Positions 8,724 to 24,960 are shown, counted from the first letter of the stretch. The stretch: 64,000 bases of DNA from Burkholderiaceae bacterium (GCA_017992055.1 JAGOPK010000004.1:112165-176164); one strand, 5' to 3'. Notes: a model not told the origin generated them from the letters alone. Numbers and translations: made by a program.

Positions 8724-8730
8724 CGGCCGA

Positions 8731-10791
8731 TTATGTCGGCGCCGTCAGCCGGCCGGCGGCGTCCAGCAGGCGCCGGCTCAGTGCCTTGGGCGGGGCGCGC
8801 AGGGTGCGGACACCCGCGCCGGCCGCCGGCGCATAGCGCAGCCGCTCCAGCTCCAGCAGGGCCTGGGTCAGCTCGGCGGCGGCCGGCTGCGGCTGCAGCC
8901 GCGCCAACAGGCCAGCCAGGGTGCGTGGCCCATGGTGCGGCCGCGCCGCCAGGCCGGCGCGCTGCAGCGCCGCCACCAGGCGCTGCTGCAGGCGCTGCCA
9001 GGGGTCTTGCCGATGGCGGTCCCACCAGGCCCAGCCGGCCGCGGCCAGGGCCAGCGTGGACAGCGCGCCCACCAGCAGGCGCAGCAGCTGGGTCCAGTCC
9101 GGCAGATCGAAGCCCAGGCCCTTGAGCAGGCCCATCTGCTGGCTGCGCGACCAGCCCATGATCCATTGCGTCCAGCGGCTGTCCATCAGCTCCCAGGCCT
9201 GGCGCAGCTGGGCGGCCAGGGCCGGGCTCATGGTGCGCAGCGCGCCGGCCACGAAGCCCGGCCGCGGCGGCAGCGGGCGGCTGGCACGCACCCGCTCGGG
9301 CGCCACCGCGGCCGTGGGATCGGCGCGCAGCCAGCCCTCGCCGGCCTGCCAGAACTCGGCCCAGGCATGGGCATGGCTCTGGCGCACGACGCGAAAGCCG
9401 TCGGCATCGGGCGGCTCGGCGCCCTGGTAGCCGGTGACCACCCGCGCCGGCACGCCCATGCCGCGCATCATGACCACGAAGGCGGTGGCGAAATGCTCGC
9501 AAAAGCCCTCGCGGCCGTCGAACCAGAACTCGTCCACCGCCTCGCGGCCATACAGCCGCGGCGTCATGGTGTAGACGTAGTTGCCCTGGCGGATCTGCGC
9601 CTGCAGCATCGCCGCCAGCGTGCGCGCGTCGGCCTGCGGCAGCTGGCGCCGGGTCTGCTGGGCCCAGGCCAGCGCTCGGGGATTGAAGCCCACCGGCAGC
9701 CGTGTCAGCGCCAGCCGCTCCAGCGGCGCCAGGTCCAGGCCATGCTGGAAGCGGGTGTGGGCCTGGCCCTGCACGCGCAGCCGCTCGCTGATCAGCCGGC
9801 CGGCCTGCCATTGCAGGTCATGGCCCAGCCAGGGCCGGGTCTCGCCCTGGGGCTGCAGCTGCAGGCTGTCGGGCCGGGTGGCCTCCAGCAGCGGCAGCAC
9901 GGCCAGGCGGATGGGCTCGAACAGCACCTCGTAGCGCTGCGGCGCGCCGGCCAGCTGCAGGTCCAGGTCCTGCGGCGGCGGCCAGGCCGAGCGCAGGCCG
10001 GCCTGCCACTCCAGGCCGTCGAAGCGTGACAGCACCGGGCCGCGGAAGTACAGCTCCTGAGGCGGCGGCGCCGCACCGTCAAAGCGGATGCGGAAGGCGA
10101 TGCTGTCGTCGTTGGCCAGGTCGGCCACGCCGCCCATGCGCAGCGTGCCCGACAGGCCGGTGCGGCCCACGCTGTCCTGCGGCAGGCTCCACAGCGGGCC
10201 GAAACGCGGGAACAGCACAAACAGCAGGGCCATCAGCGGCAGGCCCCACAGCGCCGAGCGTGCGGCCAGGCGCGCCGCCTGCCACAGCGGCGGCCGGCCC
10301 ACCGGCATGTTGGACAGCACCAGGGCCGTCAGCAGGCCCCAGGTGGCGGCCAGCATGGCCAGCGTGATGCCCAGCGACTGCGAGTACAGCGCATTCGTCA
10401 GCACCAGGAAGAAGCCGAGGAAGAACACCACCATCGCATCGCGGCGCGCGCGCAGCTCCAGCGTTTTCAGCGCCAGCAGCAGCACCAGCAGCGTGAGCCC
10501 GGCCTCGCGGCCGAGCAGGGTGCGCTCGGTGGCCAGCGTGGCCGCCACCGCGCCCAGCAGCACCGCCAGCACCGGCCAGCGCCCGGGCAGGTTGCGACCG
10601 GCCAGCGCGATCTGCGTGCGCCAGCCCAGCACCACCGCGGTGAGCAGGCCGCACCACAGCGGCAGATGCCACAGGTGCGGCGCCACGGTCAGCGCAATCA
10701 CCGCCAGCTGGAACAGCGTGTCGCGGGTGTCGCGTGGCCAGTGCCGCCATTGCAGCCAGCCCGTGCGGCGCCGACCCGGTGTTGCCAGCAT
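8731..10791 (-). CDS. Membrane transglutaminase-domain protein (DUF3488, TgpA-like)
   Basis: Multi-TM N-terminus; GFCEHFA (Cys), HAWAE (His), RADPT (Asp) triad. Confidence 0.9.
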   Translation of the reverse strand: MLATPGRRRTGWLQWRHWPRDTRDTLFQLAVIALTVAPHLWHLPLWCGLLTAVVLGWRTQIALAGRNLPGRWPVLAVLLGAVAATLATERTLLGREAGLTLLVLLLALKTLELRARRDAMVVFFLGFFLVLTNALYSQSLGITLAMLAATWGLLTALVLSNMPVGRPPLWQAARLAARSALWGLPLMALLFVLFPRFGPLWSLPQDSVGRTGLSGTLRMGGVADLANDDSIAFRIRFDGAAPPPQELYFRGPVLSRFDGLEWQAGLRSAWPPPQDLDLQLAGAPQRYEVLFEPIRLAVLPLLEATRPDSLQLQPQGETRPWLGHDLQWQAGRLISERLRVQGQAHTRFQHGLDLAPLERLALTRLPVGFNPRALAWAQQTRRQLPQADARTLAAMLQAQIRQGNYVYTMTPRLYGREAVDEFWFDGREGFCEHFATAFVVMMRGMGVPARVVTGYQGAEPPDADGFRVVRQSHAHAWAEFWQAGEGWLRADPTAAVAPERVRASRPLPPRPGFVAGALRTMSPALAAQLRQAWELMDSRWTQWIMGWSRSQQMGLLKGLGFDLPDWTQLLRLLVGALSTLALAAAGWAWWDRHRQDPWQRLQQRLVAALQRAGLAARPHHGPRTLAGLLARLQPQPAAAELTQALLELERLRYAPAAGAGVRTLRAPPKALSRRLLDAAGRLTAPT

Positions 10792-13755: not shown

Positions 13756-13782
13756 AATGAGCGCTCCACATCAGCGCTCGTT
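13756..13782. repeat. Inverted repeat AATGAGCGCT-N7-AGCGCTCGTT overlapping the stop codon of the TIR-methyltransferase gene
   Basis: Read directly; 9/10 Watson-Crick pairs plus one T-G wobble. Confidence 0.75.
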
Positions 13783-15402
13783 GGGCGCCGTACTCGCCGT
13801 CCTCGGTGAGATCAAGTACAGGCCCAGGCCGAAGTTTGTGTTGGCATACCAGTTCACGACTTGCTCATCGACCACGCAGCCAGAATCTTCGACCATCGCC
13901 TCAATCCACGACGACAAGTATTTGCGCGTCAGATAGAGACGCACCGTCTCTCGGTCGTCGACGTCGACAAACTGCCCAGTCGGCACCCGCATGGACAATC
14001 GGTTGCCGGAACAGTTGGTATAGACGGTTCGCACCTCGATGAATCGATCCTTAACGACATGCGGCACGTACGACACCCAGGCGCGATTGGCTGTCAAGTT
14101 GGTGTGGTTCTCCAGGGCGCTGGTCGCGAAGTCGAAGAACGCCGGGATGTTCTGGTACTCGTGTGCCGCCGTTCTGGCGGCGGCTTCGTCGGCGGTTCGA
14201 GTGATTGCCACTTCCAACAGCAATCTGTCTTGGTCGCGAAGCAGCCCAGCCAAGGTTTTCAGCAATCGCGAATCGTCGTCGAAGTTGGCCAGCGTGTTGC
14301 CCAGCAGCGAATAGAGAACAGGCTGATCGCCCACAACCTGGGTTACAACGCCCCAGATCGCATGCGCGTTCTCGGCAGTTGAGAAGTCGATCTGCACCGG
14401 CAGTACACGCGAGCGCGGCAAGTTGCCGTTCTTCAGGCATTCGACGACGCCGACACGCAGCATGTCGCCACTCATGTCGACAGGAAAGAAATAGGCCTGG
14501 GGGTTGCCGGCGAGGATGCAACTGAGAACGACCCGGTCTTTCTCCCCGGTCCCGACGCCGAGGCTGACGTAGTTCTGTGGAGCTTTCAGCAGCTTTTTTA
14601 CCGTCGTCCAGCGTGCCTCGAAGGTCTGGATGCTCCACTTCATGACGAGGTACTTCTTGTCGGTACAGGCGCGGTCCCAAGCCAGCGTAGGCCCAATGCC
14701 CCAATAGGCGAATCCGGAAGGAAATCGTTTCCCGTTGCCATCGGGCGACGGGCCGAGGCTAAGTTCGCGTGCCAATTCGACCGCCTTGTCGGATTGGTCC
14801 TCGCCGATGAAGCACAGCGTCCAGCCCAGACTGGCGTGATCGATCGCCTTGGTAATCGACCTGTCCGCCAATATCGGCCCGGGGTCTTGTCTCTGGGTCT
14901 TGGCAACGACCTTTGCCGCGCCCTGTAGAGCACGCGCGAGCGCAATGAAGTTGCGCTTTGGCGGATAAGGCAGGTGGAGCATCTTCTGGATGCTGAGATA
15001 CAACTTTTCGAGTTGCTTCGGCTCATTCAGTACCAGTCCCTGTTGAGCCAGCAAGGGCATCTTCAGTTCATCCGGTTGCAAACCGCTGTGGCAGATCGGC
15101 ACCACCGGAATGTCCTTCAGGTACGCCGCTCCCGCCTCGAAGTTCACCCACGGCCGACTGATGGACTCACGGCTGCAGAGGACAAAAAGCATGTCTGCGC
15201 GGCGCAGTGCATCACAGATGGTCGCGAACCATTTGTCGCCGAGCGCGATGCTCTCAAGATCTGACGAGACGAAGAACTCGACCTGTCCGCCGAAATCTGC
15301 GGCGATCGCATCCTTCAAGCGCTGCGCAATGATGCCTTCCAGACTGATGTGGCTGATGAAGATGTTGAACTGCGACTTTTCGGGTTTGACTGGGCTCATC
15401 AT
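13771..15402 (-). CDS. TIR domain fused to an EgtD-like (Methyltransf_33-type) SAM-dependent methyltransferase
   Basis: N-term IFISH...GDKW...CSRESISRPWVNFEAGAA (TIR, catalytic Glu); C-term SLGVGTGEK, FPVDMS, IDF, LLGNTLANF, DRLLLEV; visibly more A+T than neighbours. Confidence 0.85.
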   Translation of the reverse strand: MMSPVKPEKSQFNIFISHISLEGIIAQRLKDAIAADFGGQVEFFVSSDLESIALGDKWFATICDALRRADMLFVLCSRESISRPWVNFEAGAAYLKDIPVVPICHSGLQPDELKMPLLAQQGLVLNEPKQLEKLYLSIQKMLHLPYPPKRNFIALARALQGAAKVVAKTQRQDPGPILADRSITKAIDHASLGWTLCFIGEDQSDKAVELARELSLGPSPDGNGKRFPSGFAYWGIGPTLAWDRACTDKKYLVMKWSIQTFEARWTTVKKLLKAPQNYVSLGVGTGEKDRVVLSCILAGNPQAYFFPVDMSGDMLRVGVVECLKNGNLPRSRVLPVQIDFSTAENAHAIWGVVTQVVGDQPVLYSLLGNTLANFDDDSRLLKTLAGLLRDQDRLLLEVAITRTADEAAARTAAHEYQNIPAFFDFATSALENHTNLTANRAWVSYVPHVVKDRFIEVRTVYTNCSGNRLSMRVPTGQFVDVDDRETVRLYLTRKYLSSWIEAMVEDSGCVVDEQVVNWYANTNFGLGLYLISPRTASTAPNER

Positions 15403-15475
15403 GTGTCCTGGAAAGACTGCCCCTTGAGCGCAGTGCGTCGGGATCACCAACCTGCTACCGCGCCTCGCCTCGGCC

Positions 15476-15498
15476 AATGACCTCTGTCAGCGGTCATT
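15476..15498. repeat. Inverted repeat AATGACCTCT-N3-AGCGGTCATT upstream of the TIR-methyltransferase gene
   Basis: Read directly; 9/10 pairs; arms resemble the 13756-13782 hairpin. Confidence 0.75.
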
Positions 15499-15504
15499 CG
15501 CCAA

Positions 15505-15533
15505 ATTCTGAGGTGTCGCGAATCGACTGTCCA
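15505..15533 (-). promoter_or_regulatory. Candidate sigma70 promoter TGGACA-N17-CAGAAT for the TIR-methyltransferase gene
   Basis: 5/6 and 4/6 match to TTGACA/TATAAT with 17-bp spacer. Confidence 0.4.
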
Positions 15534-15656
15534 ACCCCAAGACATGCCAGAGTCTGGCCGCGGCACCGTGATTCGGCAGGACGTCGACCGTGCGCGGCCC
15601 GTTGTCACAACGGATGCCATGGGTGCCGTGCGGCGTGCCCGGCGACAATCTCCGGC

Positions 15657-16979
15657 ATGACCGGTCTCGATACCTTCTCCCGCCTGTTCACCGATCTCTT
15701 GCGGCCCACGGCCCTGGCCGAGCTGGGCGTGCTGGCCGGCTGCCTGCTGCTGTCCTATCTGCTGGTGCGCGTGCTGCGGCCTGCCAGTGCCACGGCCACC
15801 AGCATCCTGTTCGGCGCACGCGGCTTTGACGGCGCGCTGTTCCCGCTGCTGGCCCTGGCCCTGGCGCTGGGCGCGCGGTTTGCGCTGCGTGGCCAGCAGG
15901 TGCCGATCGCGGTGTTCCACCTGGCCGTGCCGGTGCTGGCCAGCCTGGCCATCATCCGCACCGCGGTGCGCGTGCTGCATGCGGCCTTTCCGGCCTCCAC
16001 CGTGGTGCGCCTGGCCGAGCGCAGCTTCAGCTGGTTCGTCTGGATCGTGCTGGTGCTGTGGCTGACCGGCCTGCTGCCGCTGATCCAGGACGAGATGGAG
16101 GCGGTGCAGTGGAAGATCGGCGGCGCCACGGTGTCGCTGCGCAGCCTGGTCGAGGGCGCGCTGACCGCGGTGGCGGTGATGGTGGCCATGCTGTGGCTGT
16201 CGGCGGCCATCGAGTCGCGGCTGATGGCCGCCAGCGGCGTGCACCTGAGCGTGCGCAAGATCGCCTCCAACGCGGTGCGTGCCGGCCTGCTGCTGATCGG
16301 CCTGCTGCTGGCGCTGTCGGCCGCCGGCATCCCGCTGGGCGCGCTGGGCGTGATGGGCGGCGCACTCGGCGTGGGCATCGGCCTGGGCCTGCAGAAGCTG
16401 GCCGCCAACTATGTGAGCGGCTTCGTCATCCTGGCCGAGCGCAGCCTGCGCATCGGCGACATGGTGCGGGTCGACAACTTCGAGGGCCGCATCACCGACA
16501 TCAGCACGCGCTACACGGTGATCCGCGCGGCCAATGGCCGCGAGTCCATCGTGCCCAACGAGCTGATGATCACGCAGCGGGTGGAGAACTGCTCGTTCAC
16601 CGATCCCACGATGGCGCTGAGCACCATGGTGCAGGTGGCCTATGGCACGGCGGTCGAGGCGCTGATGCCGCAGCTGGTGGCGGCGATGGCCGGCGTGCCG
16701 CGGGTGCTGGCCGATCCGGCGCCGTCGGTGCAGCTCAGCAACTTTGCCGCCGACGGCCTGGAGCTGACCCTGGTGTTCTGGATCGCCGATCCCGAGAACG
16801 GCCAGGGCAATGTGCGCAGCGCGGTCAACCTGGCGGTGCTGCGCGCGCTGGATGCGGCCGGCATCGAGATCCCGTTCCCGCAGCGCGTGATGCACACGCT
16901 GGCCCCGCCTGCAGCACCCGCCGCACCCGCCACGATGGCCGCGGCGGCCCAGCCCGCTCAGCCCACCGCGGCCGACTGA
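15657..16979 (+). CDS. Mechanosensitive channel, MscS family
   Basis: GALGVGIGLGLQKLAANYVSG, RIGDMVRV, SIVPNELM, IEIPFPQR. Confidence 0.92.
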   Translation: MTGLDTFSRLFTDLLRPTALAELGVLAGCLLLSYLLVRVLRPASATATSILFGARGFDGALFPLLALALALGARFALRGQQVPIAVFHLAVPVLASLAIIRTAVRVLHAAFPASTVVRLAERSFSWFVWIVLVLWLTGLLPLIQDEMEAVQWKIGGATVSLRSLVEGALTAVAVMVAMLWLSAAIESRLMAASGVHLSVRKIASNAVRAGLLLIGLLLALSAAGIPLGALGVMGGALGVGIGLGLQKLAANYVSGFVILAERSLRIGDMVRVDNFEGRITDISTRYTVIRAANGRESIVPNELMITQRVENCSFTDPTMALSTMVQVAYGTAVEALMPQLVAAMAGVPRVLADPAPSVQLSNFAADGLELTLVFWIADPENGQGNVRSAVNLAVLRALDAAGIEIPFPQRVMHTLAPPAAPAAPATMAAAAQPAQPTAAD

Positions 16980-17710
16980 GCCGATTCCAGCGCCTGCAGG
17001 CAGGCCAGGGTGCGCGCCAGGCGCGGCCCGGGCTGGGCGTCCAGGGTCTGGCGCACCAGGCCCAGCAGGCCGTCGAAGGCCTCGGCCGGCATGCCCGGGC
17101 GGGCCCCGGCCAGCAGGGCCGCCAGGTCCTGCGGCGGCAGGGCGCGCGTGATCCACTGCAGCGACAGCGCCATCTCCTGCGGGTCCAGGCTGGCGATGAT
17201 GCGGCCGTCCAGGGCCAGCAGCTGGGCATCGGAGTAGTGCGCCCACAGCAGCGGGTTGTGCACGCGCTCCTCCTGCTCCATGTGCTCGAAGTTCTCGGCC
17301 ACGAACAGCGCCAGCAGGCGGTACAGCCGGCGTGCCAGCGCGCTGCGCTGGGCCGGCGCCACCTGGCGCAGCGCCTGCACCTGGTCTTCCAGCGAGGCCA
17401 GCGTGTCCAGGTGGCTGACGTGCTCGTCGGCGATGGGCCGGGCGCTGCCGGCCGCGGCGGCTTCCAGCGCCGGATGCAGGAACTCGTTTTCGTGCGCCAC
17501 ATGGCGGCGCAGCTGCAGGCACAGCAGCTCCACCTGGTCCAGCGTGGCCGCCATCGCGTCGGCATCGTCCACGTCCAGCCGGCCGACCTGGCCCAGCGTC
17601 TCGACCATGAACAGGCGCCAGGCGCGGTGGATGGCGCCGTAGATGTCGAAACGCGGGGCGCTGTCGGCGGGCGGCTGGGGCTGGCTGGCTTGGCGGGTCT
17701 GGGGGTTCAT
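16958..17710 (-). CDS. Hemerythrin-domain protein with canonical di-iron ligands
   Basis: IHRAW...HVAHENEF...EHVSH...HMEQEE pattern. Confidence 0.85.
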   Translation of the reverse strand: MNPQTRQASQPQPPADSAPRFDIYGAIHRAWRLFMVETLGQVGRLDVDDADAMAATLDQVELLCLQLRRHVAHENEFLHPALEAAAAGSARPIADEHVSHLDTLASLEDQVQALRQVAPAQRSALARRLYRLLALFVAENFEHMEQEERVHNPLLWAHYSDAQLLALDGRIIASLDPQEMALSLQWITRALPPQDLAALLAGARPGMPAEAFDGLLGLVRQTLDAQPGPRLARTLACLQALESAQSAAVG

Positions 17711-18342
17711 GGAGTCTCTCGCTTCAGGGTTGGGTGGGAAAGGCTTGTGATCTGCGGGCCGTGGGCATTGGCGCCCACGGCCTCCAGCGCCTGGGCCACG
17801 CGGCGCAGGGCCGCCGGGTCCAGGGCCTGGCGCATCCAGTGCAGCAGCGCGGCCTGCTCGTCCTCGTGCAGCCTCGCCAGCAGGCGTTGCAGCAGCAGCA
17901 GGGCAGCGCTGCCGGGATAGGCCAGGGCCAGGGCCGGCGCATCCAGCGCCTCCTGCTCGGCCATCTGGCGGCGCTGCTGGGCCACCAGCTCGCGGGCATG
18001 GCGGGTCAGGCGTTCCAGCAGCGGCCCGCGGCCGGCGGCCGGCGTGCGGGCCAGCTGGCGCAGCTCCAGCATCAGGTCGTCCAGCCGGGCGCAGCTGGCG
18101 TCGCGGGCCAGGCCGCTGCGCCAGCTGGAGCCGGGCCAGCGCGCCTCCAGCGCCGCATGCAGCACCTCGGACTCGCAGCGCATCTGGCTGCGCAGCAGGT
18201 CGGCCAGGGCCTGCCAGCGGGCCAGCAGCGGCTGCGGATCGTGCTCGGCACGCGCCGCCTGCAGGTCCGCCAGGCCCTGGGCCATGGCGCTGCGCAACGC
18301 GCGGTGCGGCAGGCGGTAGAGGTCGCCGGCGTCGTTGCGCAT
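17707..18342 (-). CDS. Hemerythrin-like paralog, most ligands lost (alternative start 18360)
   Basis: DLYRLPHRALR aligns to DIYGAIHRAWR; HxxxE motifs replaced by QMRCESE and QMAEQE; stop overlaps next ATG. Confidence 0.65.
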   Translation of the reverse strand: MRNDAGDLYRLPHRALRSAMAQGLADLQAARAEHDPQPLLARWQALADLLRSQMRCESEVLHAALEARWPGSSWRSGLARDASCARLDDLMLELRQLARTPAAGRGPLLERLTRHARELVAQQRRQMAEQEALDAPALALAYPGSAALLLLQRLLARLHEDEQAALLHWMRQALDPAALRRVAQALEAVGANAHGPQITSLSHPTLKRETP

Positions 18343-18346
18343 GGCC

Positions 18347-19258
18347 TCAGCTGCCGCCATGGCGCGCCGGCAGCGACGACAGGTACAGGTGCAGGGCCGC
18401 GGCATCGGTGTCGCTGAGCTGGCGCAGCGACTCGAAGGGCATCACCGCGATGCTGCTGCCGTCGGCGCGGCGGCCGCTGCGCAGCATGGCCTGCAGGGCC
18501 TGGGCATCGTGGTAGCGCGTGGCCAGCACACCGTCGGCGCCGGGACGCAGATCCGGCGCGGCCGGCCACGACGGCGGTGCGCCCGGGATGCGCCCGCCGG
18601 CCAGCTGGGCGCCATGGCAGCCCACGCACATGGCCGCCACATAGCGCCCATGCTCGATGCTCACCGCCTCGGGCACCGGCTGGGCCGGGGCGCGGCCATG
18701 GTCGATCAGGTCGTGGGCATCGGGGATCTGACCCAGGCCGTAGAGCACGCGCACCGGCAGCGGCAGGCGGATCTCGGCCGCCAGGCCATCGACCGCCGGC
18801 AGCGCACGCACATGGGCCACCAGGGCGCCCAGGTCGGCATCGGTCAGGCCCTGGTAGTCCTGCGAGGGCATCACGCGCACCACGCGGCCGTCGCGCTTGA
18901 CACCGTGGCGCAGCAGGCGGTCCCAGTCGGCCAGGGTGTAGCCCTGGGTGGCGCTGCCACGGCCGGCGGTGAGGTTGGGGCCGCTCAGGCGCAGGCCGCC
19001 TTCGTCGACGAAGTTGCGGCCGGCGCCCTGGGCGCCGTGGCAGTCGACGCAGCCGCGCGTGGCATACAGGTAGCGGCCACGTTCCAGGCTGGCGGCATCG
19101 GTGGGCAGGGCCAGTTTGCGGGCCTCGGCCATGGCGAGGTCCGGGCGGCGTTGCTGGCGCTGCTCGGCCAGCACCAGGCCGGTGGCCACCGTGGCCGCGG
19201 CCAGCGTCGCCAGGCCGGCCAGCGTGACCAGGCCGCGGCGTATCCAGGGGGAGGGCAT
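18347..19258 (-). CDS. Dihaem class I cytochrome c with N-terminal anchor/signal
   Basis: CVDCH and CVGCH, distal Met in VMPS and VMPF; hydrophobic N-terminus after RR. Confidence 0.9.
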   Translation of the reverse strand: MPSPWIRRGLVTLAGLATLAAATVATGLVLAEQRQQRRPDLAMAEARKLALPTDAASLERGRYLYATRGCVDCHGAQGAGRNFVDEGGLRLSGPNLTAGRGSATQGYTLADWDRLLRHGVKRDGRVVRVMPSQDYQGLTDADLGALVAHVRALPAVDGLAAEIRLPLPVRVLYGLGQIPDAHDLIDHGRAPAQPVPEAVSIEHGRYVAAMCVGCHGAQLAGGRIPGAPPSWPAAPDLRPGADGVLATRYHDAQALQAMLRSGRRADGSSIAVMPFESLRQLSDTDAAALHLYLSSLPARHGGS

Positions 19259-19296
19259 GGAGGTTCTCCGTGGGGGATGTTGGCGGGGATGCGGGC

Positions 19297-20061
19297 TCAG
19301 GCCCGCGCCTGCAGCGCGGCACTGGCCGCGGCCAGCTGCGGCCAGCGCGGGCCGACGCGGCCACGCACGGCGATCGCCAGCTGCACCCAGGCCTCGGGCG
19401 CCAGGCCGTCCTGCAGCTCGTGCAGCATCAGCGCCAGCTCGTCGGTGTTCAGCGCATCGGCCATCAGCAGGGCCAGGTCCAGGCGCTCCCAGGGCGGCAG
19501 CAGGGCCTGGGCACGGCGCGCCAGCTGGCGGCGCTGCGCGGCATCGAACAGCACGTCGCGCAGCGGCGCCAGCAACTGCTCCTCGCGCGCCATCATCTGC
19601 AGCTGCTGGGCCACCTGCTGCTCGAAGGCCCGCTGCAGGCGCTGCAGCGCCGCGGCGGCCTGGGCGGGCTGGGCCTGCATCAGCTCATGCGCCAGGCGCT
19701 GGATGCCGGCCGTGCGGGCCAGGTCGTCGAGGTGGTCCTGCAGCGCGCCATCGACCAGGCCGGGCTGGCGCGCGGCCAGGGCCGGCAGCCAGACCTCGCA
19801 GTCGGCGCGGCGGTGACCGTCCAGCACATCCAGCAGGCGTTGCAGGCGCTGCATGGCGCTGCGCACCGACGCCGCATCGGAAACATCCAGCCGGCCCAGG
19901 GTCTGCAGCTGGCGCGACAGCGCATGGCGCAGCGCCTTGTGCGCCGCGGCGCAGGGGTCCCAGGCGCTGCGGGCTGGGTGGGCTGCTGGGTTGGCGGCTG
20001 GGTGGGTGGCCGGGTGGGCGGCAGACGGGCTGGGGCGGACGGCGTCGAGCAGGGCGGTCAT
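19297..20061 (-). CDS. Hemerythrin-like paralog, partly degenerate
   Basis: AHKALR, LGRLDVSD (cf. VGRLDVDD), HRRADCE, DHLDD, MMAREE. Confidence 0.7.
   Translation of the reverse strand: MTALLDAVRPSPSAAHPATHPAANPAAHPARSAWDPCAAAHKALRHALSRQLQTLGRLDVSDAASVRSAMQRLQRLLDVLDGHRRADCEVWLPALAARQPGLVDGALQDHLDDLARTAGIQRLAHELMQAQPAQAAAALQRLQRAFEQQVAQQLQMMAREEQLLAPLRDVLFDAAQRRQLARRAQALLPPWERLDLALLMADALNTDELALMLHELQDGLAPEAWVQLAIAVRGRVGPRWPQLAAASAALQARA
19973..20020. repeat. 4 x 12-bp imperfect tandem repeat encoding (A/T)(H/N)PA units
   Basis: gctgggtgggct / gctgggttggcg / gctgggtgggtg / gccgggtgggcg. Confidence 0.8.
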
Positions 20062-20116
20062 GGCGGCGGAGCGGGGGCGGTGGAACAGAAGCTCCAGTCT
20101 GTCCAGCCCGACCCCG

Positions 20117-20200
20117 CATCACATCGCCCGCAAGAGCCATCACACCGGGCCATCACAGCGGGCCATCGCACCCGGCCAGCGGGCCAGCGGGCCATGGCCC
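20117..20200. repeat. Intergenic direct repeats: 3 x 13 bp G(A/G)GCCATC(A/G)CA(C/G)C plus partial copies
   Basis: gagccatcacacc 20134, gggccatcacagc 20147, gggccatcgcacc 20160; extra CATCAC at 20117. Confidence 0.75.
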
Positions 20201-20210
20201 GCCTGGTGAT

Positions 20211-22967
20211 TCAGCCGCGCGCCGCCTCGTCCTGCGCAAACCACCAGGCCGCGGCCTGGCCGCGGCTGGTCAGGCCCAGCTTGGCCAGCACATTGGCCAC
20301 ATGGCGCTTGACGGTGTGCGGGCTCAGGTCGAAGGCGCGGGCGATCAGCTTGTTGCTGTCGCCGGCGGCGATGCGCTCCAGCACCTCGCGCTCGCGTGGG
20401 CTCAGCACCTCACCGGGCAGGGCCTGGGGTGCGGCCGACAGCGCAGGCTGGGGCCGCACCAGGCTCCGCACGACCGCAGCGCCGGCCTCGCTGGCATCGC
20501 TGGCATCGGTGACGCCATCCACCTCATCGCCCGCTGCGGCCGGCAGGATCGGCTCCAGCCGCCAGCCCACCCGTGCGGCCCAGCGCCGCAGCGGCTCGGC
20601 CAGGGCCTCGGGCAGGTGGGGCTGCAGCCGCGCCTGCAGCGCCGGCGAGGCCAGCTGCTGCAGCGCGCTGCCGCCGAACAGCAGGCCGCCGGGGCCGCCT
20701 TCGGCCAGCGCCCGCTGCAGCGCCGGCGCCAGCACCGCGGCGGCGCCGGCGGCATCGTCCTCGGCCACCAGCAGCGCATGGGCCAGGCGCACCCGCAGCT
20801 CGGCGGCCTGGCCCAGCTGGTCGATCTGCGCCTCCTGCGGCAGCAGCGCACGCCAGCCGGCGATGGCCGCCGCGGGCCGGCCCTCCAGCCAGTGCAGCTG
20901 GGCCGGCAGCGGGCTCAGTGCGGCCAGGCGCTCGCCGGCGGCGCGGGCCTGCTCGGGCAGCAGGGCCGGTTCCAGCCGGTCCAGGCAGGCGCGCAGCAGC
21001 GGGCCATGGTCGCAGATGGCTGCGGCGCGCGCCGCCAGCCTCAGCCCATGCCAGGCCGACCAGGCGCTGCCCAGGGCCCCCGGCTGCTGCAGCGCCGGCT
21101 GCACCAGCGATTCCACCGTCGCCCGCCGGCCCCGCAGCGCCAGCATCAGCGCCTGCTGCTGGCGCACGGTGCGGCGCACATTGGGCGGATCGCCGACCCA
21201 GCGGCAGTCGGCATCGGCCCGGTCCATCAGCGCATCGGCGGCCTCCAGCCGGCCGTCCCAGGTGGCCAGCCAGGCCTCGATCAGCAGGCTGGCGGCGCTG
21301 AGCGCGGTGGGCCGGTCGGCCTCGGCCAGGCGGCGCACGCCCTCGGCATGGCGCTGCAGCGCACCGCGCGTGCCGGGCAGGCCGATGAAGCGCAGGATGG
21401 GCGTGGCCATGTACCAGTACTCGGGCGCGCGCAGCCGCTCCAGCGTGTCCACGGTCTCGTCCAGCACGGGGCCGATGCGGGCCATGGAGCCCATGTCCAG
21501 CGCATGCCAGCTGGAGGCGACCAGCACCAGCACGCGCGTGGCGTCGCTCATGCGCTCGCGGCGCAGCGGTCCCAGCACCGCGCCGCTGGCATCGACCTGG
21601 CCCAGCGCGTTCAGCGCCAGCGCCAGCAGACCCTGGGCCTGCTGGCGCTGGGCCTCGTCCTGGCGCGACTCGGCCAGGGCCAGTGCGCGCCGCGCGGCCT
21701 CGGCCATGGCCGGGAAGTCCCAGCGCGACCAGGCCAGCAGGGCCTTGATGCACTGCAGCGCCGACGAGCTCTGGCGCAGCGCCGGCGCAAAGCCGTCGAG
21801 CAGCTTGTGCACGGTCTGCACCGCGCCCTCGGTCAGCCAGCGCGCGGCGCGCGCCGCCAGCAGCGACTTGGCCGCCGCCTCGTCGCCGGCCTGCAGCAGC
21901 AGGGCCACGCGGCGCTGGGCGTCGGGCTCGGCCGCGGCCGCGCGCTGGCGCAAGGGCAGCAGGTCCAGCGGGCGCTGGCGCTCCAGCTGCTGCTGCAGCG
22001 CGGCGCGGAACAGGTCGTGCAGGCGCAGCGTGCGCTGGGCACCGTCGACGCTGGTGGCGAACAGGCCCAGGCGCTCGACCTCGTCGAGCAGCAAGGCCGC
22101 ATGGGCCTGGCCGGTGACGGCCGCGCAGCGCGCCGCGTCCAGCTCGGGCAGCACCGAGGTGTCGAGCAGAAAGTCGCGCAGCTCGGGGCGCAGCCGGTCC
22201 AGCACCTCGCTGGCCAGGAAATCGAACACATGGCGGTCCACCGCGCCGGCCGGCATCACGCCGTTGCGGCTGGCGTTCAGCGCCAGGCGCAGGCCGGCCG
22301 GCCAGCCCTCGGTGCGCGCATGCAGGCTGAGCACCGCCTCGGCGTCCACGCCATGGCGCTCGCCCAGGGCCTGGGCCTCGGCCGCAGAAAAGCCCAGCTC
22401 GGCCTGGCGGAACTCGGCCAGTTCACCCTGCACGCGCAGCCGCGCCAGCGGCAGGGCCGCCGGGTCGTGGCGGCTGGCCAGCACCAGGGTCCAGCGCTGC
22501 CCCAGGCGTTCGATCAGATGCGCCAGCAGGGCCAGCGCCGGGCCGTCGTGCAGGCGGTGCAGGTCGTCCAGCACGATCACGCCGCGCTCCAGGTCGCAGG
22601 CCTCCAGCGTGTTCACCAGCTCGGTGGCGATCTGCGCCGGCGGCGCGCCGGCCTCGGCCATGGCCACCAGGGCCTCGGGCGCGAGGCGCCAGGGCGGGTC
22701 CTGCGGCTCCAGCGCGGCGATCAGGCATTCCAGCAGGCGCGCCAGGTCGTCGTCCTCGTCCAGCGACACCCAGGCCAGCGGCGGCGCGTTGTCGGCCGCC
22801 AGGGCCTCGGCCAGCGCCGTGGTCTTGCCGAAGCCGGCCGGCGCGCTGAGCAACACCAGGCGGTGCTGGCCCAGCGCGACACGCAGCGCGGCCTGCAGCG
22901 CCGGGCGCTGGATCTGCTGCTGCGGCCGCAGCCGCGGGCACTGGATCTTGGTGCGGGCAAAGGACAT
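20211..22967 (-). CDS. MalT-like STAND ATPase / LuxR HTH transcriptional regulator (ORF is open to 23324)
   Basis: APAGFGKTT Walker A, VIVLDDLH Walker B, C-terminal LSPREREVL...TVKRHVANVLAKLG. Confidence 0.9.
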   Translation of the reverse strand: MSFARTKIQCPRLRPQQQIQRPALQAALRVALGQHRLVLLSAPAGFGKTTALAEALAADNAPPLAWVSLDEDDDLARLLECLIAALEPQDPPWRLAPEALVAMAEAGAPPAQIATELVNTLEACDLERGVIVLDDLHRLHDGPALALLAHLIERLGQRWTLVLASRHDPAALPLARLRVQGELAEFRQAELGFSAAEAQALGERHGVDAEAVLSLHARTEGWPAGLRLALNASRNGVMPAGAVDRHVFDFLASEVLDRLRPELRDFLLDTSVLPELDAARCAAVTGQAHAALLLDEVERLGLFATSVDGAQRTLRLHDLFRAALQQQLERQRPLDLLPLRQRAAAAEPDAQRRVALLLQAGDEAAAKSLLAARAARWLTEGAVQTVHKLLDGFAPALRQSSSALQCIKALLAWSRWDFPAMAEAARRALALAESRQDEAQRQQAQGLLALALNALGQVDASGAVLGPLRRERMSDATRVLVLVASSWHALDMGSMARIGPVLDETVDTLERLRAPEYWYMATPILRFIGLPGTRGALQRHAEGVRRLAEADRPTALSAASLLIEAWLATWDGRLEAADALMDRADADCRWVGDPPNVRRTVRQQQALMLALRGRRATVESLVQPALQQPGALGSAWSAWHGLRLAARAAAICDHGPLLRACLDRLEPALLPEQARAAGERLAALSPLPAQLHWLEGRPAAAIAGWRALLPQEAQIDQLGQAAELRVRLAHALLVAEDDAAGAAAVLAPALQRALAEGGPGGLLFGGSALQQLASPALQARLQPHLPEALAEPLRRWAARVGWRLEPILPAAAGDEVDGVTDASDASEAGAAVVRSLVRPQPALSAAPQALPGEVLSPREREVLERIAAGDSNKLIARAFDLSPHTVKRHVANVLAKLGLTSRGQAAAWWFAQDEAARG

Positions 22968-23430: not shown

Positions 23431-24960
23431 TCAGGCCACGGCCACCGGGATCTTGCCGATCTTGGACTGCCAGAGCTTGGGGCCGGTGTTGTGCACGCTG
23501 GTGCCGGACGAGTCGACGGCCACCGTCACCGGCATGTCCTTGACCTCGAACTCGTAGATCGCCTCCATGCCCAGGTCGGCAAAGCCGACCACCTTGGCCC
23601 CCTTGATGGCCTTGGCCACCAGGTAGGCGGCGCCGCCCACGGCCATCAGGTAGGCGCTCTTGTGCTTCTGGATCGCGGCGATGGCGGTGGGGCCGCGCTC
23701 GGCCTTGCCGACCATCGCGATCAGGCCGGTCTGGGCCAGCATCATCTCGGTGAACTTGTCCATGCGCGTAGCCGTGGTCGGGCCGGCCGGGCCCACCACC
23801 TCGTCGCGCACCGGGTCCACCGGGCCGACGTAGTAGATGACGCGGTTGGTGAAGTCCACCGGCAGCGGCTCGCCCTTGGCCAGCATGTCCTGGATGCGCT
23901 TGTGCGCGGCGTCGCGGCCGGTCAGCAGCTTGCCGCTGAGCAGCAGGGTGTCGCCGGGCTGCCAGCTGGCCACCTCGGCCGGGGTCAGCGCATCCAGGTT
24001 GACCTGCTTGCTCTTGTTGTAGTCGGGCGCCCAGCTGACGTTGGGCCACAGGTCCAGGCTGGGCGCCTCCAGGTAGCTGGGGCCCGAGCCGTCGAGCACG
24101 AAGTGCGCATGCCGCGTCGCCGCGCAGTTGGGGATCATCGCGATCGGCTTGCTGGCGGCATGCGTGGGGAAGGTCTTGATCTTCACGTCCAGCACCGTGG
24201 TCAGGCCGCCCAGGCCCTGGGCGCCGATGCCCAGCGCATTGACCTTCTCGTACAGCTCGATGCGCAGCTCCTCCAGCTTGTTGCTGGGGCCGCGCTGCAG
24301 CAGCTCGTACATGTCGATGTCGTCCATCAGCGCCTGCTTGGCCAGCAGCGCGGCCTTCTCGGCCGTGCCGCCCACGCCGATGCCCAGCATGCCCGGCGGG
24401 CACCAGCCGGCGCCCATGGTTGGCACGGTCTTCAGCACCCATTCGACGATGTCGTCGCTGGGGTTGAGCATGTAGACCTTGCTCTTGTTCTCGCTGCCGC
24501 CGCCCTTGGCGGCCACCGTCACGTCGACGGTGTTGCCCGGCACCACCTCCATCTGCACCACGGCCGGCGTGTTGTCCTTGGTGTTCTTGCGCGCGAAGAT
24601 GGGGTCGTCCAGCACGCTGGCGCGCAGCACGTTGTCGGGGTTCAGGTAGCCCTGGCGCACGCCTTGGTTGACGGCGTCCTCGATGGAGCCGCTGAAGCCC
24701 TCCCAGCGCACGTCCATGCCGATTTTCAGGAACACGTTGACGATGCCGGTGTCCTGGCAGATCGGGCGCTTGCCTTCGGCGCACATGCGGCTGTTGGTCA
24801 GGATCTGGGCGATCGCGTCCTTGGCCGCCGGACTCTGCTCGCGCTCGTAGGCGCGGGCCAGGTGGGCGATGTAGTCCGCCGGGTGGTAGTAGCTGATGTA
24901 CTGCAGCGCAGCGGCGATGCTGTCGACCAGGTCTTGCTGGCGGATCGTGGTGGTGCTCAT
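23431..24960 (-). CDS. fumA: Class I fumarate hydratase
   Basis: PICQDTG, AKGGGSEN, GAGWCPPG, GRDAAHKR, AGPTTATRMD. Confidence 0.95.
   Translation of the reverse strand: MSTTTIRQQDLVDSIAAALQYISYYHPADYIAHLARAYEREQSPAAKDAIAQILTNSRMCAEGKRPICQDTGIVNVFLKIGMDVRWEGFSGSIEDAVNQGVRQGYLNPDNVLRASVLDDPIFARKNTKDNTPAVVQMEVVPGNTVDVTVAAKGGGSENKSKVYMLNPSDDIVEWVLKTVPTMGAGWCPPGMLGIGVGGTAEKAALLAKQALMDDIDMYELLQRGPSNKLEELRIELYEKVNALGIGAQGLGGLTTVLDVKIKTFPTHAASKPIAMIPNCAATRHAHFVLDGSGPSYLEAPSLDLWPNVSWAPDYNKSKQVNLDALTPAEVASWQPGDTLLLSGKLLTGRDAAHKRIQDMLAKGEPLPVDFTNRVIYYVGPVDPVRDEVVGPAGPTTATRMDKFTEMMLAQTGLIAMVGKAERGPTAIAAIQKHKSAYLMAVGGAAYLVAKAIKGAKVVGFADLGMEAIYEFEVKDMPVTVAVDSSGTSVHNTGPKLWQSKIGKIPVAVA

What the first reader, a model, noticed from the sequence alone, without database searches (positions are those of the whole stretch)
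16958..22967. MalT-like regulator + three hemerythrin-fold genes + dihaem cytochrome c module
Seen: five co-oriented genes (STAND-LuxR regulator, hemerythrin-like, dihaem cytochrome c, hemerythrin-like, hemerythrin), the last three tightly coupled. Known: hemerythrins bind O2/NO or metals at a di-iron site, and MalT-type regulators are ligand-activated. Inference: an uncharacterised O2/NO/iron-responsive redox module linking cytoplasmic di-iron proteins to an exported haem carrier.
Basis: partly seen in the sequence, partly recalled or inferred. Interest (0 to 1): 0.65.

Follow-up and report, generated by a model that had tools for sequence, protein, structure and literature searches.

The report
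MalT-like-controlled hemerythrin and cytochrome c operon
This is a real, conserved and unstudied gene unit of freshwater and soil Betaproteobacteria: a large ATP-dependent LuxR-type activator and a conserved promoter and operator signal that probably lets it switch on iron-binding hemerythrin-like proteins and a two-haem cytochrome c, and this genome has three hemerythrin copies, two of them without their iron-binding residues.

Summary
Five co-oriented minus-strand genes lie between fumA and mscS: a MalT-like STAND-LuxR regulator, HrA, a membrane-anchored dihaem cytochrome c, HrB and HrC.

The unit is co-conserved. Of 69 related loci with enough flank, 30 carry a c-type cytochrome directly after the Hr gene. 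MalT-like genes, cytochrome c and a newly found cis-element co-occur (odds ratios 9-13).

The element is ATGGCTC-N4-GGSCGATG-N21-ASACT, preceded by extra TGGCYC boxes. It occurs once in the window, 35 nt upstream of HrA. In more than 120 metagenome contigs it mostly precedes Hr or cupin-Hr(-cytochrome c).

The Hr family is large and uncharacterised (917 clusters at E<=1e-30). Its nearest solved relative is the iron/O2-sensing FBXL5 hemerythrin domain.

HrC keeps all ligands. HrA and HrB lost most, yet stay under purifying selection.

The 'redox link' between cytoplasmic Hr and exported cytochrome is not supported. The proteins sit in different compartments and the cytochrome is dispensable in relatives, so the only link shown is shared regulation. 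The signal (O2, NO or iron) remains untested.

This is a new variant of known kinds, of moderate interest.

The parts
20211..22967 (-). MalT-like STAND ATPase / LuxR-HTH transcription activator (918 aa)
   Evidence: Pfam GerE 65.7 bits and AAA_22. NCBIfam MalT scores 216.7 bits against a cut-off of 537. Orthologues at 38-49% identity lie next to Hr in 29 of 69 loci. The start at 22967 fits the tblastn alignments, which begin at residues 1-3.
20122..20195 (-). Operator array. ATGGCCC-type boxes lie at 20195-20189, 20166-20160 and 20153-20147, with weaker CTGGCC[CG] copies between them. The array ends in the 19-nt imperfect inverted repeat ATGGCTCTTGCGGGCGATG at 20140-20122.
   Evidence: Sequence and a 13-nt tandem repeat. 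The 19-nt element is conserved on the Hr strand in about 40 of 87 related loci. The composite pattern occurs once in the window against 0.00 expected. The consensus of 137 sites is.
20096..20101 (-). -10-like hexamer CAGACT (family consensus gACACT), at a fixed spacing: 21 nt separate the operator from the conserved ASACT core. The operator's proximal half-site falls where a -35 box would be.
   Evidence: Anchored alignments. Pattern matches. That this is a promoter is an inference from conservation and spacing.
19297..20061 (-). HrA: a hemerythrin-like paralogue in the ancestral Hr position. It retains family positions H28, H70, H97 and E147. It has changed E74 to D, H79 to L, H100 to D and H143 to M. 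It carries an N-terminal HPA-rich repeat.
   Evidence: Close homologues exist only in L090 and L091. dN/dS against L091 is 0.35.
18347..19258 (-). Membrane-anchored, periplasm-facing dihaem cytochrome c (303 aa; CVDCH and CVGCH, each followed by a VMP motif that probably supplies the Met ligand)
   Evidence: Pfam. The best PDB matches are haem domains 1-2 of the trihaem cytochrome subunits of fructose, glucose and alcohol dehydrogenases. There are more than 1200 homologues.
17707..18360 (-). HrB: the most degenerate paralogue. It keeps only family positions H28, E74 and H79. Alternative starts are at 18342 and 18405.
   Evidence: The AF2 model has pLDDT 89.5 and the same helix pattern as HrC, but no significant PDB match. 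dN/dS against L091 is 0.49.
16958..17710 (-). HrC: a canonical member of the two-domain Hr family. All invariant ligands are present (H28, H70, E74, H97, H100, H143, E147). Its start overlaps the HrB stop (ATGA).
   Evidence: The AF2 model has pLDDT 93.6. The FBXL5 Hr domain is the best match by sequence (E 8e-7) and by fold (TM 0.81-0.84).

Best explanation
**What the unit is.** The five genes are one regulatory unit that is conserved in Sphaerotilaceae-type Burkholderiales.

**How it is probably switched on.**
- The MalT-like STAND ATPase/LuxR activator most likely binds an array of TGGCYC boxes.
- The array ends in an inverted pair, ATGGCTC-N4-GGGCGATG, which sits where a -35 box would be.
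- From there the regulator would activate a promoter with a gACACT-type -10. This resembles class-II activation, as MalT does at its own boxes.
- The promoter drives the operon HrA - cytochrome c - HrB - HrC.

**What the products are.**
- The Hr proteins are cytoplasmic and have two domains: an FBXL5-type di-iron four-helix bundle and a small helical C-terminal domain.
- The cytochrome is a signal-anchored, periplasm-facing, His/Met-type dihaem electron carrier.
- Only shared regulation links the two. No electron path between them is evident.

**What I think the Hr proteins do (inferred).**
- They act as iron- or oxidant-sensitive switch or adaptor proteins that work through protein contacts.
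- The likely target is the activator itself, as feedback, in the way MalK and MalY act on MalT.
- I think this more likely than a catalytic role.
- In this lineage the ancestral Hr was duplicated on both sides of the cytochrome gene. HrA and HrB then lost their metal ligands but remained selected. HrC supplies the only intact di-iron site.

**Shown:** gene content, paralogy, synteny, the conserved cis-element and its association with MalT-like genes, the fold, and the ligand status.

**Inferred:** that the regulator binds the element, that the element is a promoter, that the genes are co-transcribed, the nature of the signal, and the sensor/adaptor role.
For: **Synteny**
- The order fumA - malT-like - [cupin] - Hr - cytochrome c - mscS (convergent) recurs in L025, L037, L053, L056 and L069. 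The close relatives L090 and L091 have the order MalT-like - HrA-like - cytochrome c - HrB-like - mscS, without an HrC copy.

**Co-occurrence in 69 loci with enough flank**
- Cytochrome with MalT-like gene: odds ratio 12.6, p=6e-6.
- Operator with MalT-like gene: odds ratio 9.0, p=6e-5.
- Operator with cytochrome: odds ratio 10.7, p=2e-5.

**The operator-promoter composite**
- It occurs once in 64 kb against 0.00 expected.
- It is found in 29 of 91 loci, always on the Hr strand.
- Of 90 non-redundant metagenome sites, 47 are followed directly by Hr and 11 by the cupin that precedes Hr.

**Family tree**
- Module-type and solo-type Hr separate cleanly.

**Points favouring a sensor/adaptor role**
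- FBXL5 Hr is the nearest solved relative by sequence and by fold.
- Both Hr subfamilies sit beside signalling-type proteins. Module-type Hr sits beside MalT-like genes. Solo-type Hr sits beside a PNPOx-GAF protein in 27 loci.
- The ligand-poor HrA and HrB are kept under purifying selection (dN/dS 0.35 and 0.49). They are the only Hr copies in the L091 locus.
- A published precedent exists: the hemerythrin-like MsmHr represses the SigF response (PMC4295536).
- In BTSL2, one of three packed Hr folds lacks iron (PMC12022348).
Against: - There is no direct evidence that the regulator binds the element, or that the Hr proteins touch the regulator.
- Hr is the commonest product of the regulated promoter. 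In R. gelatinosus it is the only adjacent target (L019). That fits an effector as well as a feedback modulator.
- The rare fusions of the family are to enzyme-like domains (GST, SnoaL), not to signalling domains.
- Solo-type Hr proteins work without any MalT-like neighbour.
- The survey covers only the best 80 of at least 548 loci and is not corrected for phylogeny.
- The element was defined on the same loci in which it was first counted. The metagenome scan is an independent check.
- Co-transcription is not shown.
Confidence: 0.45

Rival explanations
1. The regulatory architecture is the same, but the Hr proteins are the effectors. They would be RIC/YtfE-like cytoplasmic di-iron proteins that donate iron to damaged Fe-S enzymes, or that turn over nitrite, NO, O2 or H2O2. 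The cytochrome c would be an independently useful, co-induced periplasmic electron carrier. The unknown signal would be sensed by the MalT-like protein itself.
For: - Hr or cupin-Hr is the first gene after 58 of 90 operator sites.
- HrC has weak RIC, YtfE and DnrN similarity, and two family members carry the source name 'YtfE (RIC family)'.
- GST-Hr and Hr-SnoaL fusions exist.
- A GST gene lies downstream in L081 and SnoaL genes lie in L001.
- The Polyangiaceae solo locus L004 sits among globin, FNR-like reductase, Rrf2, MOSC and nitrite/sulfite reductase genes.
- Class I fumarase, an oxidant-sensitive Fe-S enzyme, is the conserved upstream neighbour.
- YtfE is reported to repair such enzymes and to reduce nitrite (PMC9268430 and PMC9052748).
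Against: - The RIC score is 20.9 bits against a cut-off of 204.7, and there is no ScdA_N domain.
- The nearest structure is FBXL5; no YtfE/RIC structure is among the 50 best fold matches listed.
- HrA and HrB lack the metal site yet are conserved, and L091 has only these copies.
- The fumA adjacency may be plain core-genome synteny.
Confidence: 0.3
2. This is a microoxic respiration aid. HrC would bind O2 as bacteriohemerythrins do (P. aeruginosa Mhr, Methylococcus Hr). It would be co-induced with a dihaem cytochrome c that feeds a high-affinity oxidase.
For: - The cytochrome has weak CcoP-like matches.
- An Anr-regulated O2-binding hemerythrin that supports microoxic fitness is published (bioRxiv 10.1101/802934, listed).
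Against: - The Hr family is closest to FBXL5, and no O2-carrying hemerythrin is among the 50 best fold matches listed.
- The family carries an extra C-terminal domain.
- No oxidase genes are in the module.
- The regulator is MalT-like, not of the FNR/Anr type.
- The cytochrome resembles dehydrogenase subunits more than CcoP (E 2.6e-13 against 3e-3).
Confidence: 0.1
3. The genes are neighbours without a functional tie. In this reading the conserved order reflects only inherited core-genome synteny between fumA and mscS.
For: - fumA and mscS flank the locus in many relatives whether or not MalT-like or cytochrome genes are present (for example L012 and L013).
- The statistics are not phylogenetically corrected.
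Against: - The operator/promoter element travels with Hr, cupin and cytochrome genes in contigs with other flanks.
- MalT-like genes occur upstream, divergent or downstream of the same pair (L001, L026, L008).
- The genes are translationally coupled in the window.
Confidence: 0.05

Closest known systems
FBXL5 hemerythrin-like domain (human iron/O2 sensor; PDB 3U9J, 3V5X-Z)
   Same: It is the best sequence match (E 8e-7) and the best fold match (TM 0.81-0.84, rmsd 2.0-2.6 A over about 154 columns). The H / HxxxE / H / HxxxE ligands align.
   Different: The window's proteins are bacterial and stand alone. They have no F-box or LRR part. They carry an extra C-terminal domain of about 90 aa and five short helices with no structural match. 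Any partner would be a transcription factor, not a ubiquitin ligase.
E. coli MalT and its regulon
   Same: The regulator has the STAND ATPase plus LuxR-HTH architecture. Its probable target is an array of short repeated boxes placed at or over the -35 region of a promoter that lacks a -35 box. MalT is controlled by regulon-encoded protein partners (MalK, MalY); that point is textbook knowledge, not tested here.
   Different: It is not the MalT equivalog (216.7 bits against a cut-off of 537). The box sequence is TGGCYC/ATGGCTC, not GGGGAKGAGG. The ligand is unknown. The targets are Hr, cupin, c-type cytochromes and secreted proteins.
RIC / YtfE / ScdA di-iron proteins
   Same: Both have a cytoplasmic HHE-type di-iron four-helix bundle, and some sources name family members as RIC.
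   Different: The ScdA_N domain is absent and the family scores are far below cut-off. The domain order differs. The regulator is not NsrR or FNR.
BRUTUS / BTSL2 triple hemerythrin iron sensors of plants (PMC12022348)
   Same: Both have three Hr folds working together, one of which has lost its di-iron centre, with a proposed iron- and redox-sensing role.
   Different: In the plant proteins the three folds lie in one polypeptide of an E3 ligase. Here they are three separate genes, and two of the three are degenerate. No interaction between them has been shown.
Trihaem cytochrome c subunits of membrane-bound fructose, glucose and alcohol dehydrogenases (PDB 7W2J_C, 8HDD_B, 8GY2_B)
   Same: Haem domains 1 and 2 align over residues 50-299 (E 2.6e-13 to 2.4e-10). 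The CxxCH motifs and downstream MP (Met-Pro) motifs are shared.
   Different: The window's protein has two haems, not three. It has an N-terminal signal anchor. No dehydrogenase subunit genes lie in the locus.
MsmHr of Mycobacterium smegmatis (PMC4295536)
   Same: It is a stand-alone bacterial hemerythrin-like protein that modulates a transcription-factor-dependent stress response.
   Different: It belongs to a different Hr subfamily, acts on a sigma-factor pathway, and has no cytochrome partner.

Membership tests
Hemerythrin / HHE cation-binding domain (Pfam PF01814) | Profile score at or above the gathering score (25.3 bits) | tested here: inconclusive
   HrC scores 30.5 (met). HrA scores 25.1 (just below). 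HrB scores 15.5 (not met). All.
Hemerythrin / HHE cation-binding domain (Pfam PF01814) | Four-helix bundle fold | tested here: met
   The HrC model (pLDDT 93.6) superposes on FBXL5 Hr with TM 0.81-0.84. The HrB model has the same helix pattern, but its best PDB hit has E 0.23, so for HrB the fold rests on paralogy.
Hemerythrin / HHE cation-binding domain (Pfam PF01814) | Complete H / HxxxE / H / HxxxE di-iron ligand set | tested here: not met
   The set is met only by HrC. HrA has lost H143 and H100 and changed E74 to D. HrB has lost H70, H97, H100, H143 and E147.
Hemerythrin / HHE cation-binding domain (Pfam PF01814) | Actual binding of two iron atoms | not testable with these tools
   This needs purified protein, with metal analysis and UV-vis, EPR or Moessbauer spectroscopy.
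RIC / YtfE (NCBIfam TIGR03652, NF008221) | Equivalog score above cut-off, and an N-terminal ScdA_N domain | tested here: not met
   HrC scores 20.9 bits against 204.7, and 17.4 against 254. No ScdA_N hit was found.
MalT (NCBIfam NF003420 equivalog) | Full-length equivalog score of at least 537 bits | tested here: not met
   The score is 216.7 bits, covering mainly residues 6-443.
MalT-like / LAL STAND-LuxR regulators (architecture class) | N-terminal P-loop STAND NTPase, a helical sensor region and a C-terminal GerE/LuxR HTH | tested here: met
   AAA_22, nSTAND_NTPase5 and NB-ARC hits at residues 33-153, and GerE at 65.7 bits over residues 854-907. Walker A GFGKTT and Walker B VLDD are read. 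Relatives carry WHD_MalT.
MalT-like / LAL STAND-LuxR regulators (architecture class) | Binds repeated boxes in front of its target promoter | tested here: inconclusive
   A conserved box array co-occurs with the regulator gene (odds ratio 9.0) and lies before the operon. Binding itself was not tested.
Trihaem cytochrome subunit of membrane-bound quinone-reducing dehydrogenases | Three CxxCH haem sites and adjacent catalytic subunit genes | tested here: not met
   The protein has two CxxCH motifs. It aligns only to haem domains 1-2. No dehydrogenase genes are in the locus.
Class I c-type cytochrome domains (Pfam PF00034, PF13442) | Profile scores above the gathering score, with CxxCH | tested here: met
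   PF13442 scores 58.4 against 27 and PF00034 scores 58.3 against 21.3, with two matched stretches each.

The most novel reading that the evidence does not exclude
The three Hr proteins assemble into a hetero-oligomeric iron/oxidant sensor. It would have one metal-competent subunit (HrC) and two ligand-poor 'pseudo-hemerythrin' subunits (HrA and HrB), as a bacterial multi-gene counterpart of the three-fold BRUTUS/BTSL2 and FBXL5 sensors. This complex would gate the MalT-like activator. Cytoplasmic iron or redox status would thereby be coupled to the expression of periplasmic c-type cytochromes and envelope proteins in a bacterial family known for Fe and Mn oxidation.
Probability: 0.12. Interest if true: 0.75.

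Novelty: new variant of a known kind. Interest (0 to 1): 0.45.

Why it matters
**A large unstudied family.** The two-domain, FBXL5-like hemerythrin family has at least 917 clusters at 50% identity with E<=1e-30. It is found across many Proteobacteria, and I found no published study of it.

**A ready handle for experiments.** The work gives the family a defined regulator and a precise, testable operator and promoter sequence. It also identifies a tractable host, because Rubrivivax gelatinosus carries the minimal MalT-like - operator - Hr unit.

**What follows if the sensor reading is right.** If the Hr proteins prove to be iron or oxidant switches acting on a STAND activator, this would be a bacterial parallel to eukaryotic hemerythrin-based iron sensing. 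It would also be a rare case where the signal input of a LAL/MalT-type regulator can be worked out.

**Pseudo-hemerythrins.** The ligand-less but selected paralogues are a natural example of pseudo-hemerythrins.

Tried and rejected
I therefore could not make a whole-genome count of operators, or look for other Hr or MalT-like copies in the window's own genome.
- **RNA evidence** did not help. Only metagenome-type RNA-Seq runs hold pieces of the locus. Laying them gave isolated exact fragments of 150-215 nt in the cytochrome c, HrA and MalT-like genes. No piece spans a junction, so co-transcription stays open.
- **The window's own 13-nt repeat core** (TG[TC]GATG) is not conserved upstream of Hr in relatives. 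The conserved unit turned out to be ATGGCYC boxes plus the 19-nt element.
- **A sigma-54 promoter reading** of TGGCTC...GGGCG was considered and dropped on inspection. The GG-to-GC spacing is 9 rather than 10, and a conserved -10-like hexamer follows at a fixed 21 nt.
- **An RNA hairpin reading** of CC-TTCG-GG was dropped because the element lies upstream of the inferred -10.
- **The standard promoter and terminator scan** found nothing useful.
- **HrB fold search** against the PDB gave no significant hit.
- **dN/dS against L090** is not usable because dS is saturated or constrained.
- **Pfam on other genes behind the operator** gave little. The hits were PEP-CTERM, a PLD-like domain, PSCyt1-like dihaem proteins and many proteins with no family.
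- **Literature searches** combining hemerythrin with MalT, LuxR or cytochrome c, and with Rubrivivax and related genera, found no study of this unit.
- **The 1098-aa 'fusion' P0330** has no Pfam domains, so I did not use it as evidence.

Full report
**1. What is in the window**

The region has 73-78% G+C. Its real genes all lie on the minus strand.

- A class I fumarase gene sits at 23431-24960.
- A 463-nt gap follows.
- The MalT-like gene is at 20211-22967 and encodes 918 aa. It has Walker A GFGKTT, AAA_22, nSTAND and NB-ARC hits, and GerE at 65.7 bits. NCBIfam MalT scores 216.7 bits, well below the equivalog cut-off of 537.
- A 149-nt spacer follows.
- HrA is at 19297-20061.
- A 38-nt gap with a GGAGAA ribosome-binding site follows.
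- The dihaem cytochrome c gene is at 18347-19258.
- HrB starts 4 nt after the cytochrome stop, or 14 nt before it, depending on the start chosen.
- HrC starts within the HrB stop (ATGA).
- A convergent MscS-type channel gene at 15477-16979 overlaps the HrC 3' end by 22 nt.

Pfam Hemerythrin scores are 30.5 bits for HrC, 25.1 for HrA and 15.5 for HrB, against a gathering score of 25.3. The three proteins are paralogues at 30-34% identity.

Only the cytochrome has a hydrophobic segment, at residues 13-31. In relatives its N-terminus reads M-x-[KR]-W-[IL]-[KR]-R, then a hydrophobic stretch, then GERK. I read this as an uncleaved signal anchor, so the haem domains would face the periplasm (inference).

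The caveat is that only HrC is a fully credentialled hemerythrin domain.

**2. The Hr family**

- HrC belongs to a two-domain family of 225-250 aa. Sources mostly call its members hypothetical.
- A profile search of 1.84 billion cluster representatives found 917 clusters at E<=1e-30 and 2186 at E<=1e-10.
- Seven family positions are invariant: H28, H70, E74, H97, H100, H143 and E147.
- The nearest solved structure is the iron/O2-sensing hemerythrin-like domain of human FBXL5. It is the best match by profile (E 8e-7) and by fold.
- The HrC model has pLDDT 93.6 and superposes with TM 0.81-0.84 and rmsd 2.0-2.6 A.
- Residues 161-249 form five short helices with no structural match.
- No YtfE/RIC or O2-carrying hemerythrin is among the 50 best fold matches listed. 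RIC family scores are far below cut-off.
- Rare fusions join the family to GST or SnoaL domains.

**3. Synteny**

I therefore used the look-up of encoding contigs and one scan of GTDB species genomes. That scan found at least 548 loci, and the best 80 were kept.

Most of the 80 come from Sphaerotilaceae-type Burkholderiales. The genera include Rubrivivax, Piscinibacter, Ideonella, Rhizobacter, Roseateles, Aquabacterium and Caldimonas.

I ran tblastn with the window's proteins against these loci. I also searched for CxxCH-bearing ORFs after each Hr gene. Among 69 loci with enough flank:

| Feature | Loci |
|---|---|
| c-type cytochrome directly after Hr (dihaem of about 300 aa, or a related monohaem form of 160-205 aa) | 30 |
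| MalT-like gene within 8 kb | 29 |
| Both of the above | 22 |
| None of cytochrome, MalT-like gene or operator | 27 |

- The recurrent order is fumA - malT-like - [cupin] - Hr - cytochrome c - mscS (convergent). It is seen in L025, L037, L053, L056 and L069. The window is therefore this ancestral locus.
- The MalT-like gene can also lie downstream (L001, L026) or be divergent (L010, L036).
- R. gelatinosus (L019, L014) has MalT-like - Hr - mscS with no cytochrome. The cytochrome is therefore an optional member.
- In a maximum-likelihood tree, 29 'solo' Hr proteins form one cluster. The module-type Hr proteins make up the rest.
- Solo-type Hr genes have a different conserved neighbour. It is a convergent PNPOx-GAF protein of about 450 aa plus a protein of about 163 aa, seen in 27 loci.

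**4. A conserved operator and promoter**

- The window's 13-nt tandem repeat at 20136-20178 is not conserved as such.
- Aligning the MalT-Hr spacers revealed the conserved unit. It is a 19-nt element, ATGGCTC-y-N2-y-GG[GC]CGATG. This is an imperfect inverted repeat.
- One to several (C/G)ATGGCCC boxes precede it. A gACACT or cAGACT hexamer follows it at a fixed spacing, with 21 nt between the element and the conserved ASACT core (consensus of 137 sites).
- The proximal half-site falls where a -35 box would be. I read this as class-II activation (inference).
- The composite ATGGCTC-N4-GGSCGATG-N21-ASACT occurs once in the 64-kb window, at 20140-20096 and 35 nt upstream of the HrA start. The expectation from shuffles is 0.00.
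- It occurs in 29 of 91 loci, always on the Hr strand. It lies before Hr or before the cupin gene that precedes Hr.
- In the 69 loci, the operator associates with MalT-like genes (odds ratio 9.0, p=6e-5) and with the cytochrome (odds ratio 10.7, p=2e-5). The cytochrome associates with MalT-like genes (odds ratio 12.6, p=6e-6). None of these tests is phylogenetically corrected.
- An independent exact-pattern scan of metagenome contigs returned at least 120 contigs.

Of 90 non-redundant metagenome sites with at least 600 nt downstream:

| First gene after the site | Sites |
|---|---|
| Hr | 47 |
| Cupin | 11 |
| MalT-like gene | 2 |
| 339-aa secreted protein | 1 |
| Other genes | 29 |

- Most of the 29 'other' sites keep the extra upstream box.
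- They precede secreted or lipoprotein genes. These include a dihaem 'LPERLSDTGLY' cytochrome with a monohaem cytochrome c, PEP-CTERM and PLD-like proteins, and an NmrA-like protein.
- A few look like chance hits, because they lie in low-G+C or coding sequence (L104/L193, L162/L188/L202, L186).

The MalT-like family therefore appears to control a cytochrome-rich envelope regulon whose commonest member is Hr.

**5. The triplication**

- HrA has close homologues in only three Logan contigs.
- L091 is 75-91% identical to the window at the protein level. It reads MalT-like end - five boxes at 12-13-nt spacing - HrA-like - cytochrome c - HrB-like - mscS. It has no HrC.
- L090 is about 50-70% identical and has the same order.

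Ligand status at the invariant family positions:

| Protein | Ligand status |
|---|---|
| HrC | All positions present |
| Window HrA | Keeps H28, H70, H97 and E147; changed E74 to D, H79 to L, H100 to D and H143 to M |
| Window HrB | Keeps only H28, E74 and H79 |
| L090 copies | Both keep nearly the full set |

- Ligand loss is therefore recent and lineage-specific.
- dN/dS between the window and L091 is 0.35 for HrA, 0.49 for HrB and 0.23 for the cytochrome. The degenerate copies are selected genes, not pseudogenes.
- In the tree, HrA and HrB form fast-evolving clades. HrC sits on a long branch whose position is unresolved. I cannot say whether HrC was gained here or lost in L091.
- An HrB model has pLDDT 89.5 and repeats the helix pattern of HrC. 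It finds no significant PDB match. The model also leans on an alignment dominated by canonical family members.
- Degenerate extra Hr copies have arisen elsewhere too (L010, L066).

**6. The cytochrome**

- Its best solved relatives are haem domains 1-2 of the trihaem cytochrome subunits of membrane-bound fructose, glucose and alcohol dehydrogenases (E 2.6e-13 to 2.4e-10).
- It has only two CxxCH motifs. Each is followed by a VMP motif, which probably supplies the Met ligand.
- No dehydrogenase genes are nearby.
- The family has more than 1200 members in the word-indexed search.

**7. Interpretation**

Shown:
- A conserved unit consisting of a MalT-like gene, the operator/promoter element, Hr and an optional cytochrome and cupin.

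Inferred:
- The regulator binds the boxes and activates the promoter.

The reasons are:
- The compartments differ.
- The cytochrome is dispensable.
- A cupin-cytochrome operon exists without Hr (L180).

For the Hr proteins, I weigh a sensor/adaptor role slightly above an effector role. The reasons for the sensor/adaptor reading are:
- The nearest relative, FBXL5 Hr, is a sensor domain.
- Both Hr subfamilies sit beside signalling-type proteins.
- Ligand-less copies are retained.
- There are published precedents in MsmHr (PMC4295536) and BTSL2 (PMC12022348).

The points for a RIC-like effector role are:
- Hr is the main promoter product.
- The rare fusions are to GST and SnoaL domains.
- The solo locus L004 lies among nitrite- and NO-related genes.
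- The upstream neighbour is an Fe-S fumarase.

The data do not decide between the two. Responsiveness to O2, NO or iron is untested. The RNA runs were uninformative.

**8. Novelty**

- I found no paper on this unit.
- The component kinds are all known: LAL/MalT-type activators, hemerythrin-like proteins and class I cytochromes c.
- The new elements are their conserved combination, the defined operator, the FBXL5-like bacterial family and the pseudo-hemerythrin paralogues.
- I rate it a new variant of a known kind, with moderate interest (0.45).

Noticed in passing
L009, L018, L031, L042, L070, L084, L086 and 20 more loci (about 8700-10550 in locus coordinates): Solo-type members of the Hr family are almost always followed by a convergent pair. 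One partner is a protein of about 450 aa with PNPOx_N and GAF domains plus an unassigned C-terminal 100 aa. The other is a protein of about 163 aa with no Pfam family. This looks like a second, unstudied conserved partnership of the family. It is absent from the window.
   Followed up: partly
L098, L103, L121, L156, L181, L184 (metagenome contigs): The same operator/promoter element precedes a secreted dihaem protein of about 350 aa. It starts with ...LPERLSDTGLY..., has CTGCH and CGHCH motifs, and gives a weak PSCyt1 hit. A monohaem cytochrome c related to the module's cytochrome usually follows it. This suggests a wider cytochrome-rich envelope regulon.
   Followed up: partly
window 19972-20022 (HrA codons about 14-30): A 12-nt tandem repeat (4.2 copies) encodes an HPA(T/A)-rich N-terminal extension of HrA. 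It is longer and different in the L091 orthologue, so this low-complexity tail evolves quickly.
   Followed up: no
P0299, P0289, P0031: There are rare natural fusions of the Hr family to a GST (at the N-terminus) or to a SnoaL-like domain (at the C-terminus). GST and SnoaL genes also lie next to some module loci (L081, L001).
   Followed up: partly
window 13771-15477 (-): A TIR plus EgtD-like methyltransferase fusion gene sits in an island of about 59% G+C, directly beside the mscS gene. Earlier notes of this scan already treat it.
   Followed up: no
window 16958-16979: The HrC and mscS coding regions converge and overlap by 22 nt, with no terminator-like hairpin between them. L091 shows the same kind of overlap between HrB-like and mscS.
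   Followed up: no
L064, L075, L130, L137 (two operators each): Some relatives carry two copies of the operator/promoter. One precedes a cupin gene plus a 339-aa secreted protein with no Pfam family. The second precedes Hr-cytochrome c.
   Followed up: partly
L010 7290-7943; L066 3055-3576 (P0056): Other lineages independently carry an extra, degenerate Hr-like gene just upstream of the canonical one. In these copies the HxxxE region is missing.
   Followed up: partly
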